A stretch of 64,000 bases of DNA from assembly GCF_051903065.1 (NCBI RefSeq), contig NZ_CP178439.1. One strand, written 5' to 3'. Positions 57,057-60,000 of the stretch are shown in pieces. Position numbers: made by a program. The DNA comes from Escherichia coli (GTDB taxonomy: Bacteria > Pseudomonadota > Gammaproteobacteria > Enterobacterales > Enterobacteriaceae). Within the stretch, counting starts at the first letter, position 1; every line of letters starts with the position of its first letter.

Positions 57057-60000
57057 TAACTGTCAGACCAAGTTTACTCATATATACTTTAGATTGATTT
57101 AAAACTTCATTTTTAATTTAAAAGGATCTAGGTGAAGATCCTTTTTGATAATCTCATGACCAAAATCCCTTAACGTGAGTTTTCGTTCCACTGAGCGTCA
57201 GACCCCTGTTAAAAGCAGCTCACGGGGAACGCGTCAGTCCGGCTTCATAACGGGTCGGCTGGCAGCATCTGACTCAGCAAAAGACCGGGCGCTGTGAGCG
57301 GAAATATGGCCGGTTTTCGCCAGAACCCGGTTCCACGCAGAATTACACCTGCACTGAATATACCGCTTCTGGCGTCGATTTTTTCTGCTCCCCTGCAGCA
57401 TGAGGCTCTGTAAGGCAGCCTGCTGCAAGGGGAGCAGACTCCAGCGAAAATGATAAAAAACTCCGCGATGAAAAATAAACAAAGTATTCGCCCGTCATCA
57501 CCTGAGAAGGGATTCAGCAACGTCAGATATAATATTCTTCTTGCCGGTATCGCATTAATCTTTATCGTGCTGGTTGCCAGGCTCACCGGACTTCAGCTTT
57601 TTGACCACGCTGTCCTGGAAAATGCGGCTGACCGTCGATCCGTACGGACACTTGCACTGCCAGCACAGCGCGGAACCCTGACCGATCGTTACGGCGTTGT
57701 TCTCGCCATGAGCGTGCCGGCACGTGACATCATTGCTGATCCAAAACGCATCGCTGCCGCTCATCCGGACTTCGCGGAAGCCAGATGGGCTTTTCTGGCC
57801 GACTTGCTGGATATCACGCCTGAGGAACTTCGCAGAACTATTCAAGATAATTCGGACAAGGAATTCCTGTTTCTGAAGAAAAAGTCGCCCCTGTCATTGT
57901 CCAGGGCCGTGTCACAGCTGCATCTGCCGGGCATAAGTCAGAAATACAATGAAAATCGCTACTATCCGCTGGGTGAGGCATCAGCCTCGCTCATTGGTGT
58001 GACCGGTGCCGAAAATAGAGGGCTGAGTGGTATTGAGCAGAGCTTTAACACCGTTCTGAGAAAGGACTTCGGGGTGAAAAAAATACGCAAAAACGCCAGG
58101 GGGGGCGTCATCAGCGTGATCCAGTATGACGCTCCGGAAACTGCACCGGCGATCAGGCTGAGTATTGACAGTGTGCTTCAGTATATTGTTTACAGCCGGT
58201 TAAGGGAGGGGGTCGAGCAACATCACGCCCAGTCAGGCGCTGCGGTGCTTGTCAGCGTAAACACCGGCGAAATTCTGGCTATGGCATCCTATCCGTCGTT
58301 TAATCCCAACCGTTTTTCCGGTGCCACTTCCGCTGAAATGCGTAACGTGGCGATTAATGACAGCTTTGAGCCGGGTTCAACGGTTAAACCCTTCGTCATT
58401 CTTGAAGGCCTGCGCCGCCATATTATCAGCAGCAGCACGCTTCTTGACACAAGGCCGTTCAGGGTTGACGGCCATCTTATCCGGGACGTGGGATACTGGC
58501 CGGCGCTGACGCCGACCGGCATACTTCAGAAATCCAGTGATACCGGAGTTTCACATATTGCCCTGGCGATGCCTTCGGATGCGCTGGTAAAAACGTATTC
58601 ATCCTTCGGGCTGGGAAAACCGACAGGGCTGGGCCTTCCCGGTGAAAGTACTGGTTACTTTCCGTTCAGTCGCCATCGATGGGCTGATATTGAGCGCGCC
58701 ACCTTCGCTTTTGGCTACGGCCTCCGGGTAACCCCGCTCCAGTTAGCCAGAGCCTATGCCACTCTCGGGGCCTGTGGCGTTTATCATCCGTTATCCGTTA
58801 CACGGTTATCCGCGCCGGTGTACGGTGAGCAGGTGGCGGACCCGAAGCTTGCCGATGCTGTAATCAGAATGATGGAAAGTGATGTGTTACCCGGCGGAAG
58901 TGGCGTAAGGGCAGCTGTACCGGGCTACCGTCTGGCAATAAAAACCGGAACCGCAGAGAAGTTAGGTGCCGGTGGAAAATATGACGGGGGGCATATTACC
59001 TATACGGCAGGCGTCGCGCCGGCGAGCCGTCCTGAAGTGGCACTGGTTGTGGTTATTAACAATCCCAAAGCGGGACAGCATTTTGGTGGCTCAGTGGCGG
59101 CGCCTGTCTTCGGCCAGATTATCGGTCCGGTGCTTACCCGGCTGAAGATTGCACCGGATGCTTTACGTGCTCCGGTGGTACACCGACAGTCCGGCTGAAC
59201 AGAGCCTGTTTACTCATTATTTATCTATTATTACTTAACTTAATTTTAAAAAGGATATTAATATGAAAAAGATCCGCCTTATTATAATCTCTTTACTGGC
59301 TGGAATGTGTACTCCAGCATTATCTACACCAGTCAATGTTACTGATACAATACAAAGCACAGAAGACCATATCAAAGGTCGGGTTGGTTTTACTGAAATA
59401 GACTTTTTATCCGGGAAGGTTCTGAGTAGTCATCGCCGTGAAGAACGTTTTCCTATGATGAGCACATTCAAAGTTTTGTTATGTGGAGCAATATTAGTAC
59501 GTGTTGATAAAGGGCTTGAACAACTTGAACGCCGAATTACCTATAATAAGCATGACCTGGACGACTATTCTCCACTAACCAGTCAGCACATTGCAGATGG
59601 AATGACGGTTTCTGAGTTATGCAATGCTGCCATTACCACCAGTGATAACACTGCTGCAAATTTATTGCTATCAACTATTGGCGGGCCGGAGGGATTAACT
59701 CATTTTCTGCGTAGCACTGGTGATAGTTATACAAGGCTTGATCGACACGAACCCAGCCTTAATGAGGCGAAGCCTGGCGATGAGCGTGATACCACCACTC
59801 CGGCAGCGATGGCTCAAACGCTACAAAAATTGTTAAACGAAAGTGTACTTACAGAAAAATCTCGAAAAAAATTAATAAGCTGGATGCAGGAAGATAAAGT
59901 CGGCGGGCCTCTGTTCCGCTCTGTACTGCCAGCTGGCTGGATGATAGCGGATAAAACAGGAGCAGGTGATCACGGATCTCGGGGCATCGTTGCACTGTTG

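What the first reader, a model, noticed from the sequence alone, without database searches (positions are those of the whole stretch)
57385..59198. Complete PBP3/FtsI-like transpeptidase gene immediately upstream of blaLAP inside the resistance island
A 582-aa class B PBP with membrane anchor, STVK and KTGT motifs lies between the Tn2-like IR and blaLAP, with none of the neighbours expected for chromosomal ftsI (no mraZ/mraW/ftsL/murE). The conserved SxN motif reads SSD instead of SSN. A long hairpin (57385-57437) precedes the gene. A mobilised PBP3 paralog could provide a beta-lactam-insensitive division transpeptidase, a resistance mechanism additional to beta-lactamases.
Basis: partly seen in the sequence, partly recalled or inferred. 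Interest (0 to 1): 0.75.

Follow-up and report, generated by a model that had tools for sequence, protein, structure and literature searches.

The report
Mobilised PBP3 paralog beside blaLAP-2
An intact extra copy of the cell-division penicillin target (PBP3/FtsI) sits next to the LAP-2 beta-lactamase gene; it was carried along from the donor's beta-lactam gene cluster, belongs to the 'SSD' family of PBP3 paralogs, is already annotated in hundreds of plasmids, and I found no test of whether it gives resistance.

Summary
An intact class B PBP gene (57450/57468-59198) has a membrane anchor and the STVK, SSD and KTGT motifs. It lies between the Tn2 inverted repeat and blaLAP-2, and a strong hairpin precedes it.

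It is not a captured housekeeping ftsI. It is 47% identical to E. coli FtsI and 57-62% identical to stand-alone FtsI paralogs of Erwinia, Pantoea, Pectobacterium and Citrobacter. All of these carry SSD, as does the Salmonella PBP3SAL-locus protein, so SSD is a family signature and not a defect.

The gene arrived with blaLAP as part of a donor island: ampR-like lysR, ampH, PBP3, sometimes a porin, then blaLAP. Longer fragments of that island survive on ~106-kb Enterobacter plasmids, and a 92%-identical relative sits in an Enterobacter cancerogenus contig. Between the two lineages dN/dS is 0.18, so the gene is functional in donors.

In this window the regulator and the ampH promoter are gone, and no promoter-like site lies upstream. 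Across plasmids blaLAP is nearly always intact, but the PBP3 gene is 5'-truncated in about 72% of records.

Published maps already label it 'ftsI'. I found no functional test. The resistance idea remains plausible, probably conditional on acid pH, and unproven.

The parts
57169..57206 (+). 38-bp terminal inverted repeat (IRR) of the Tn2/Tn3-family transposon that carries tnpR and blaTEM-1. It marks the left junction with donor-island DNA.
   Evidence: Sequence CTTAACGTGAGTTTTCGTTCCACTGAGCGTCAGACCCC read. I recognised it as the Tn3-family IR from memory. Homology to the donor island starts at ~57205-57207.
57207..57250 (+). Last 44 nt, including the TAA stop, of the donor island's ampH-like gene. 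The rest was cut off by the Tn2 junction.
   Evidence: Window 57205-59203 aligns to L002 4567-6563 at 91.75%. L002 3452-4612 is an AmpH equivalog (447 bits against a cut-off of 266).
57283..57332 (+). Weaker stem-loop just downstream of the ampH stop codon.
   Evidence: Inverted repeat I4. Fold -23.5 kcal/mol, z = -2.45.
57384..57438 (+). Strong imperfect hairpin in the ampH-PBP3 intergenic region, 12 nt before the first ATG. No U-tract follows it, so it is not a canonical intrinsic terminator. Its role is unknown.
   Evidence: -39.2 kcal/mol, z = -5.5. The outer stem is conserved in L002 but the inner stem has decayed there (-21.5 kcal/mol, z = -2.0). No credible Rfam match.
57450..59198 (+). 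SSD-type FtsI/PBP3 paralog gene. The maximal ORF is 582 aa; the likely start is 57468, giving 576 aa.
57528..57590 (+). N-terminal membrane anchor (aa ~27-47, YNILLAGIALIFIVLVARLTG).
   Evidence: Read from the translation. Only 21% identical to the matching part of E. coli FtsI.
57657..58121 (+). PBP dimerisation (pedestal) domain, aa 70-224.
   Evidence: Pfam PF03717, E 1.5e-15. The pedestal region (E. coli FtsI residues 51-236) is 35.5% identical to E. coli FtsI.
58236..59123 (+). Transpeptidase domain, aa 263-558, with STVK (58377-58388), SSD (58533-58541) and KTGT (58941-58952).
   Evidence: Pfam PF00905, E 1.3e-71. Motifs. dN/dS is 0.12 for codons 251-576 (roughly the transpeptidase domain) against the E. 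cancerogenus ortholog.
59199..59262 (+). AT-rich PBP3-blaLAP spacer. GC content drops here from ~58% to ~34%.
   Evidence: It aligns with the sequence upstream of the LAP-like gene in L002.
59263..60120 (+). blaLAP-2, a class A beta-lactamase.
   Evidence: NCBIfam blaLAP 676.5 bits against a cut-off of 600. The DNA is 100% identical to plasmid records annotated LAP-2.
60131..61248 (-). Truncated IS2-like element, called ISEcl2 in published maps. It was inserted 10 nt after the blaLAP stop and is cut by IS26 (61249-62068). It marks the right end of donor-island DNA.
   Evidence: NCBIfam IS2 TnpB / IS3 family. Homology to L002 ends at 60130. IS26 inverted repeats lie at 61249 and 62068. The name is taken from PMC7319535.

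Best explanation
The gene is an intact, horizontally mobilised member of the 'SSD-type' family of FtsI (PBP3) paralogs. These are stand-alone second copies of the septal transpeptidase, in which the Asn of the SxN motif is always Asp.

It was not recruited on its own. It came with blaLAP as part of one piece of a donor island with this layout: ampR/penR-like lysR (divergent), then ampH, the PBP3 paralog, a porin in some versions, and blaLAP. In the donor it is a functional enzyme under purifying selection. There it is probably co-transcribed with ampH, and possibly with bla, under the LysR regulator. That would make it an alternative division transpeptidase available when the normal PBP3 is blocked or when the periplasm is acidic. 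This functional step is inferred.

In this window a Tn2 junction has removed the regulator, the promoter and all but 44 nt of ampH. The gene survives as an intact passenger with no recognisable promoter of its own. Any contribution to beta-lactam tolerance is unproven. It would probably be small, dependent on read-through transcription, and confined to acid pH.

Shown: identity, family, origin, purifying selection, truncation statistics. Inferred: co-regulation in the donor, acid dependence, weak expression here.
For: Family:
- Pfam finds PBP_dimer plus Transpeptidase. The best solved relatives are FtsI structures (E 1e-159). The NCBIfam FtsI model scores 617 bits, below its cut-off of 737.
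- Identity is 47% to E. coli FtsI and 57-62% to stand-alone paralogs that lie outside dcw.
- SSD is invariant in 118 of 118 nearest homologs and in the cspC-rlmA (PBP3SAL-locus) proteins. N361D is one of only six positions fixed in all paralogs and different from canonical FtsI.

Origin:
- Window 57205-60130 is collinear with the E. cancerogenus contig L002 at 87-92% nucleotide identity, starting inside the 3' end of ampH.
- The ~106-kb Enterobacter plasmids keep lysR-ampH-PBP3-blaLAP-2 with an identical PBP3 gene.

Functional in donors: dN/dS is 0.18 overall and 0.12 in the transpeptidase domain.

Passenger status on plasmids:
- blaLAP covers at least 80% of its length in 407 of 422 records. 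The PBP3 gene does so in only 114 of 410; the rest are 5'-truncated at nt 378, 627, 672 or 1073.
- Chromosomal island variants L013-L018 have deleted the PBP3 gene and most of the porin gene but kept lysR, ampH and bla.

Expression in this window: no sigma-70-like site between 57207 and 57450. A terminator-like hairpin with a T-run follows blaTEM-1.

Acid-pH precedent: PBP3SAL divides cells and binds Bocillin only at pH 5.8 (PMC5736910).
Against: - The ORF is completely intact and 100% identical across more than 100 plasmids from many genera. That is compatible with some selective value, although the spread is too recent for decay to show.
- Consensus promoter scans miss weak or non-sigma-70 promoters, and read-through from blaTEM-1 was not measured.
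- Truncation patterns may reflect a few successful plasmid lineages (mostly Klebsiella) rather than repeated independent loss.
- Acid dependence is extrapolated from PBP3SAL, which is only 47% identical.
- No expression or phenotype data exist.
Confidence: 0.6

Rival explanations
1. Active transferable target bypass. The plasmid PBP3 is expressed in E. coli, Klebsiella or Salmonella, joins the host divisome, and keeps septation going when the host PBP3 is acylated. This would raise tolerance or MICs to PBP3-targeting beta-lactams, perhaps mainly at acid pH. It would be a mecA-like mechanism for Enterobacterales.
For: - The ORF is intact with all catalytic motifs and is under purifying selection.
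- Family members PBP3SAL and K. pneumoniae PBP3PARA support division and lower susceptibility to PBP3-targeting drugs (PMC5736910, PMC13251458). PBP3SAL even complements an E. coli ftsI(Ts) mutant.
- The donor island links the gene to an ampR-like regulator and a beta-lactamase.
- Changes unique to the plasmid and E. cancerogenus pair fall at otherwise invariant transpeptidase-domain positions, such as Y511H and R442H.
- The gene has the same orientation as blaTEM-1, so read-through is possible.
Against: - The gene is 5'-truncated in ~72% of LAP plasmids while bla is retained.
- The regulator and promoter are lost here, and no promoter-like site lies upstream.
- The membrane anchor and pedestal, which dock to FtsW and FtsQLB, are only 21% and 35% identical to E. 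coli FtsI, against 56% and 62% for PBP3SAL.
- No phenotype is reported in any paper I found.
Confidence: 0.25
2. Inert cargo. On plasmids the gene is effectively silent and does nothing in the new hosts. It looks intact only because the LAP-qnrS1 unit spread too recently for mutations to accumulate.
For: - All plasmid copies are at least 99% identical, and most are 100%.
- Truncated forms are frequent, and at least one full-length copy has a 1-nt deletion and carries no CDS annotation (H66).
- There is no upstream promoter-like site.
- This reading overlaps with the best explanation and differs only in denying any residual function.
Against: Silence was not measured. Read-through from blaTEM-1, or from ampH in the long-fragment plasmids that keep lysR, is plausible.
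Confidence: 0.12
3. A housekeeping ftsI captured from the dcw cluster of the blaLAP donor species.
For: Many records annotate it as 'cell division protein FtsI'. One metagenome contig (L003) shows rsmH-ftsL directly upstream of a related gene.
Against: - The L003 protein is a chimera. It is canonical FtsI up to EPGSTVKP and then 100% identical to the plasmid gene.
- Every non-chimeric context lacks dcw genes.
- The SSD signature and 47% identity to E. coli FtsI place it with the paralogs.
- It falls below the NCBIfam FtsI cut-off.
Confidence: 0.02

Closest known systems
PBP3SAL of Salmonella enterica (STM1836; Castanheira et al. 2017, PMC5736910)
   Same: A stand-alone second FtsI outside dcw, with the same domain layout, STVK, KTGT and the SSD variant of motif 2. 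The cspC-PBP-rlmA locus protein recovered here reads KSSD, and the paper writes the motif as 'SXN/D'. It shares the six paralog-specific substitutions, including N361D.
   Different: Only 47% identical to the plasmid protein and in a separate clade. PBP3SAL is 63% identical to E. coli FtsI and keeps a conserved anchor and pedestal (56% and 62%), against 47% overall and 21% and 35% here. It sits at a fixed chromosomal locus between cspC and rlmA under OmpR/acid control. It is not on a plasmid, not next to a beta-lactamase, and not next to an ampR-like regulator.
PBP3PARA (ftsI2) of Klebsiella pneumoniae (PMC13251458)
   Same: A paralogous division transpeptidase that modulates resistance to PBP3-targeting beta-lactams at low pH. 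The paper reports 61% identity to canonical PBP3.
   Different: Chromosomal and acid-induced through OmpR. I had no confirmed PBP3PARA sequence to compare. It did not appear among the 120 best hits of either homology search, so it is not a close relative of the plasmid gene.
Uncharacterised stand-alone SSD-type FtsI paralogs of Erwinia, Pantoea, Duffyella, Pectobacterium, Serratia, Kosakonia and Citrobacter sp. JGM124
   Same: These are the nearest relatives (57-62% identity, 565-579 aa). All have STVK, SSD and KTGT, and all lie outside dcw.
   Different: They are chromosomal, sit among unrelated housekeeping genes, and are not linked to lysR, ampH or bla. None is closer than 62%, so the true source lineage of the plasmid gene has not been sampled.
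Canonical FtsI/PBP3 of E. coli (dcw cluster)
   Same: Same fold and catalytic motifs 1 and 3. The best solved-structure matches are FtsI.
   Different: SSN against SSD; 47% identity; no rsmH, ftsL or murE neighbours; below the NCBIfam FtsI cut-off.
mecA/PBP2a (acquired low-affinity PBP of staphylococci)
   Same: The same concept: a horizontally acquired extra class B PBP that could bypass an inhibited native enzyme, genetically linked to beta-lactamase-type regulation.
   Different: Not homologous beyond the shared domains. MecA-family models score 24-31 bits (MecD reaches 50) against cut-offs of 750-1490. No resistance phenotype has been shown here.
AmpR-AmpC / PenR-PenA inducible beta-lactamase modules
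   Same: The donor island has a divergently transcribed LysR regulator whose best match is the beta-lactamase regulator PenR (353 bits), upstream of beta-lactam-related genes. A TTA-N9-TAA LysR-type box lies next to the lysR start in L008.
   Different: The regulator scores below the PenR cut-off of 625. The first gene controlled is ampH, not the beta-lactamase. The module is absent from this window.

Membership tests
Class B (subclass B3) penicillin-binding protein | N-terminal membrane anchor, then a PBP dimerisation/pedestal domain, then a transpeptidase domain | tested here: met
   Pfam PF03717 (E 1.5e-15) and PF00905 (E 1.3e-71). Hydrophobic segment at aa ~27-47.
Class B (subclass B3) penicillin-binding protein | Catalytic motifs SxxK, SxN and KTG | tested here: inconclusive
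   STVK and KTGT are present. Motif 2 reads SSD, not SxN. The same SSD occurs in PBP3SAL, which is catalytically active at acid pH, so the variant is compatible with activity.
Canonical FtsI (housekeeping PBP3) | Encoded in the dcw cluster between ftsL and murE | tested here: not met
   The neighbours are the Tn2 IR with blaTEM-1 and blaLAP-2. In donor-type contexts the neighbours are ampH and a porin or bla. Compare the E. coli locus.
Canonical FtsI (housekeeping PBP3) | Score above the curated NCBIfam FtsI cut-off | tested here: not met
   NF011685 scores 617.4 bits against a cut-off of 737.
SSD-type FtsI paralogs (includes PBP3SAL) | Asp replaces Asn in motif 2 (E. coli N361), together with the other paralog-specific substitutions | tested here: met
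   SSD in 118 of 118 nearest homologs and in four cspC-rlmA locus proteins. The plasmid protein carries all six paralog-fixed residues: V272I, N277S, K342R, A345G, N361D, K404R. Caveat: only two canonical sequences were used as the contrast.
SSD-type FtsI paralogs (includes PBP3SAL) | A second copy outside dcw, in a host that keeps a canonical ftsI | tested here: met
   It is plasmid-borne in E. coli and other hosts (34 of 5426 complete E. coli genomes). 5424 of those 5426 genomes carry the chromosomal rsmH-ftsL-ftsI region.
PBP3SAL orthologous group | Located between cspC and rlmA (rrmA), with ~63% identity to canonical PBP3 | tested here: not met
   The plasmid protein is 47% identical to the cspC-rlmA locus protein and to E. 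coli FtsI, and it falls in the other paralog clade.
PBP3SAL-like function | Division activity and beta-lactam (Bocillin) binding only at acid pH; low affinity for PBP3-targeting drugs | not testable with these tools
   Needs ftsI(Ts) complementation and Bocillin-FL assays at pH 5.8 and 7.4, as in PMC5736910.
Acquired low-affinity PBP (MecA/PBP2a family) | Match to the MecA-family models | tested here: not met
   MecA, MecA1 and MecB models score 24-37 bits and MecD scores 50, against cut-offs of 750-1490.
AmpR-type inducible beta-lactam response module | Divergent LysR regulator adjacent to the controlled genes | tested here: not met
   Present in donor-type loci L002, L008 and L013. Absent from the window, where island DNA starts 44 nt before the ampH stop.

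The most novel reading that the evidence does not exclude
The lysR(ampR-like)-ampH-PBP3-(porin)-blaLAP island is a coordinated beta-lactam response unit. It would pair a beta-lactamase with a replacement septal transpeptidase. The full-length plasmid copies, present in more than 100 sequenced plasmids, would then give E. coli, Salmonella, Shigella and Enterobacter a transferable, acid-pH-dependent bypass of PBP3 inhibition by aztreonam, ceftazidime, cefepime or piperacillin. Standard MIC testing at neutral pH would not detect it.
Probability: 0.2. Interest if true: 0.8.

Novelty: new member of a known kind. Interest (0 to 1): 0.45.

Why it matters
In Enterobacterales, target-based beta-lactam resistance is thought to arise only through chromosomal ftsI mutations. 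A transferable alternative PBP3 would be a new route. It could matter for aztreonam-avibactam, cefiderocol and other PBP3-directed drugs, and in acidic sites such as urine, phagosomes and abscesses.

Without a phenotype, the result still has three uses:
- It traces blaLAP to a mosaic island in Enterobacter/Cedecea-like bacteria.
- It shows that SSD-type FtsI paralogs are widespread in plant-associated and environmental Enterobacterales, not only in pathogens.
- It singles out N361D as the family's diagnostic change, which may explain acid-restricted activity.

As things stand the gene is an already annotated, frequently truncated passenger.

Tried and rejected
- Donor search. The donor species remains unidentified.
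- Second homology search, using the Citrobacter paralog, intended to pull out PBP3SAL. It returned only Pantoea/Erwinia-type paralogs. I recovered PBP3SAL instead by looking up contigs that encode the exact CspC protein.
- Hairpin as a known RNA. The only Rfam hit is a sub-threshold isrG match on the opposite strand (18.8 bits against a gathering score of 100); rejected. As an intrinsic terminator: no U-tract follows it; rejected. As Shine-Dalgarno sequestration: the GGGGAG in the 3' arm lies 15 nt from the ATG, too far to be convincing.
- Captured housekeeping ftsI; rejected (see rivals).
- Minus-strand ORFs overlapping the gene (57245-57586, 57555-57845, 58289-58522). I treated them as shadow ORFs inside a gene under purifying selection, without further testing.
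- The original LAP-1 paper (PMC1797722) is not held. I could not check whether Poirel et al. described the upstream ORF.
- Five literature searches (and the paper read) found the gene only as a map label ('ftsI') or as an unnamed ORF. None reported a functional test.
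Full report
**1. The observation**

The window holds an uninterrupted ORF at 57450-59198 on the + strand, 582 aa from the first ATG. RefSeq (WP_032623598.1, 576 aa) and the homologs begin at the second ATG, 57468.

Pfam finds a PBP dimerisation domain (aa 70-224) and a transpeptidase domain (aa 263-558, E 1.3e-71). A hydrophobic anchor lies at aa ~27-47.

The gene lies between the 38-bp Tn2/Tn3-type inverted repeat (57169-57206, downstream of blaTEM-1) and blaLAP-2 (59263-60120; NCBIfam blaLAP 676 bits against a cut-off of 600). 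No dcw genes are nearby.

The hairpin at 57384-57438 is real and strong: -39 kcal/mol, z = -5.5, and 0 of 200 shuffles fold as well.

**2. What kind of PBP it is**

The best solved relatives are FtsI structures (E 1e-159). However, the NCBIfam FtsI model scores 617 bits, below its cut-off of 737.

Global identity to E. coli FtsI (taken from a real dcw locus) is only 47%. By region it is 21% in the cytoplasmic tail and anchor, 35% in the pedestal and 58% in the transpeptidase domain.

The nearest non-plasmid proteins, at 57-62% identity, come from Erwinia, Pantoea, Duffyella, Pectobacterium, Serratia, Kosakonia and Citrobacter sp. JGM124. Where I looked, these genes stand alone among unrelated housekeeping genes and not in dcw. 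They are second copies of ftsI.

**3. The SSD motif**

All 118 full-length proteins among the top hits read STVK, SSD and KTGT.

To compare with the one well-studied paralog, I needed the PBP3SAL sequence. I looked up contigs that encode the exact CspC protein. Several show cspC, a 581-aa PBP, then rlmA. This matches the published PBP3SAL locus and length (PMC5736910). That protein is 62.8% identical to E. coli FtsI (the paper reports 63%) and also reads KSSD. The paper itself writes the motif as 'SXN/D'.

Only six alignment positions are fixed in every paralog and differ from both canonical sequences. One of them is N361D.

SSD is therefore the family signature and not a lesion in this gene.

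PBP3SAL restores division in an E. coli ftsI(Ts) mutant, and binds Bocillin-FL, only at pH 5.8 and not at pH 7.4. A protonatable Asp in place of Asn is an obvious candidate cause of that pH dependence. This is my inference and has not been tested.

The plasmid protein is not a PBP3SAL ortholog. It is 47% identical to it and sits in the other, more diverged paralog clade.

**4. Where it came from**

The only close relative outside the plasmid cluster is P0006 (92% amino-acid identity). It lies on a 10.9-kb contig of an Enterobacter cancerogenus assembly. That contig reads:

- an HTH protein, DUF6622 and a small kinase-like protein;
- a LysR regulator, divergently transcribed, whose best NCBIfam match is the beta-lactamase regulator PenR;
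- AmpH (447 bits against a cut-off of 266);
- the PBP3 paralog;
- a PhoE/OmpC-like porin;
- a LAP-like class A beta-lactamase (593 bits, just under the LAP cut-off of 600).

Window 57205-59203 aligns to this contig at 91.75%, beginning 44-46 nt before the ampH stop codon. Window 59151-60130 aligns at 87% to the region upstream of and including the bla gene.

A family of ~106-kb Enterobacter plasmids (for example NZ_CP010383.2) carries a longer fragment: MBL-fold hydrolase, HTH, DUF6622, lysR, ampH, PBP3, blaLAP-2, then the IS2-like element and qnrS1. Its PBP3 gene is identical to the one in the window.

The window's copy is therefore the stump of that fragment. The Tn2 junction removed lysR, the lysR-ampH control region and nearly all of ampH.

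Other Enterobacter sp. and Cedecea assemblies, one of them a 4.8-Mb chromosome, carry the same island flanked by IS3-family elements. In these, the segment from just upstream of the PBP3 gene into the porin gene is deleted.

The island is compositionally mosaic. lysR, ampH and PBP3 are 53-55% GC, while the porin and bla are ~43.5% GC.

No species-representative genome holds a close ortholog, so the direct donor has not been sampled.

**5. Is it a working gene?**

Between the plasmid lineage and the E. cancerogenus lineage, dN/dS is 0.18 for the whole gene and 0.12 for the transpeptidase domain. This resembles ampH (0.16) and bla (0.19). The gene has been maintained by selection in donor-type bacteria.

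On plasmids the picture differs. blaLAP covers at least 80% of its length in 407 of 422 records. The PBP3 gene does so in only 114 of 410. The remainder are 5'-truncated at a few recurrent points (nt 378, 627, 672 and 1073), mostly in Klebsiella. Among 5426 complete E. coli genomes, 34 carry the gene and 27 of those have it full length.

All copies are essentially identical, so the spread is recent and intactness alone says little.

In this window I found no sigma-70-like site between the Tn2 end and the start codon. A terminator-like hairpin with a T-run follows blaTEM-1 (57120-57145). Expression would depend on read-through or on a weak promoter that the scan missed.

**6. The hairpin**

It lies in the ampH-PBP3 spacer of the donor island. 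Its outer stem (CTCCCCT / AGGGGAG) is kept in the E. cancerogenus sequence, but the inner stem has decayed there (-21.5 kcal/mol, z = -2.0).

No U-tract follows it, and it has no credible Rfam match. It may be an inter-cistronic processing or stability element, but I cannot assign it a role.

**7. Mechanism and rivals**

Best-supported reading (confidence 0.6): this is a functional SSD-type alternative septal transpeptidase of the donor. There it is probably co-expressed with ampH, and possibly with bla, under an AmpR-like regulator. It was carried onto plasmids as a passenger of blaLAP. In this window it is uncoupled from its regulation.

Several things weaken it. Truncated copies are frequent. 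The regulator and promoter are lost. The anchor and pedestal are strongly diverged compared with PBP3SAL (21% and 35% against 56% and 62%). No phenotype has been reported. I give it about 0.25.

A fully inert passenger gets about 0.12. A captured housekeeping ftsI is essentially excluded.

**8. What is known and what is new**

The gene is annotated in hundreds of records, as 'penicillin-binding transpeptidase domain-containing protein' or 'FtsI'. Published maps of the IS26-ftsI-blaLAP-2-ΔISEcl2-qnrS1 unit draw it as 'ftsI' (PMC7319535, PMC9537591, PMC8949098).

I found no paper that tests its function or traces its origin. The original LAP-1 paper is not held.

It is best classed as a new, uncharacterised and mobilised member of a known kind, the SSD-type PBP3 paralogs.

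This analysis adds four things: the family assignment, the meaning of SSD, the donor-island architecture with its deletion variants, and the truncation statistics.

Noticed in passing
L003 750-2489 (ENA ERZ773397, NODE_992); junction at L003 1656-1681 = window 58365-58390: A metagenome contig encodes a chimeric FtsI. rsmH-ftsL and a canonical FtsI N-terminal half (~305 aa) are fused exactly at EPGSTVKP to the plasmid PBP3 C-terminal half (100% identical), followed by blaLAP-2, the IS2-like element and qnrS1. The parents can share at most a 26-nt identical stretch at the junction. This is either plasmid integration into chromosomal ftsI that creates a mosaic PBP3, or a SPAdes mis-join. Only one instance is on record.
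   Followed up: partly
L002 6614-8003 (E. cancerogenus contig): The porin gene between PBP3 and the LAP-like gene is followed by two decayed copies of the 3' end of the PBP3 gene (L002 7885-7935 and 7951-8003). The PBP3-3'-end-to-bla junction is therefore older than the porin arrangement, or the plasmid lineage lost the porin by recombination between these repeats.
   Followed up: partly
L013-L018 (Enterobacter sp./Cedecea assemblies; L013 = CP193791.1, 655-676 kb): These chromosomal or short-contig versions of the island are flanked by two unrelated IS3-family elements. They have lost L002 4720-7670 (the PBP3 gene plus most of the porin gene) but keep lysR, ampH and a LAP-family gene. In some, ampH is also split into two ORFs.
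   Followed up: partly
P0016, P0063, P0220 and others; L004-L012: SSD-type FtsI paralogs are common in plant-associated and environmental Enterobacterales such as Pantoea agglomerans, Erwinia amylovora, Duffyella and Pectobacterium. The literature describes class B PBP paralogs as pathogen-specific.
   Followed up: partly
window 59199-60120 compared with 57450-59198: GC content steps sharply from ~58% at the end of the PBP3 gene to ~34-47% across the spacer and blaLAP-2. In L002 the porin and bla are both ~43.5% GC against 53-55% for lysR, ampH and PBP3. The donor island is itself a mosaic of two sources.
   Followed up: yes
plasmid PBP3 aa 515, 446 and 258 (582-aa numbering) = E. coli Y511, R442 and N255: The plasmid and E. 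cancerogenus pair carries His at three positions that are invariant in the canonical FtsI sequences and the other paralogs compared (Y511H, R442H, N255H). E. coli 'YYGG' also reads 'HFGG' (alignment). Extra titratable residues would fit a pH-tuned active site, but I did not place them on a structure.
   Followed up: no
window 53633-54895 (-), 55423-57206, 61249-63806: Surrounding resistance mosaic: an ISEcp1-like transposase ORF, Tn2 remnants (partial tnpA, tnpR, blaTEM-1), IS26 cutting the IS2-like element so that qnrS1 is missing to the right of blaLAP-2, then a truncated intI1 and an aadA-type cassette. Five complete IS26 copies, plus two further single IS26 ends, lie in the window. ISEcp1, intI1 and aadA were recognised from the ORF translations, not from a database match.
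   Followed up: no
NZ_CP031572.1 (H66), 82023-83770: One otherwise full-length plasmid copy is 1748 nt instead of 1749 and has no CDS annotated over it. This suggests a frameshifted copy or a sequencing error.
   Followed up: no
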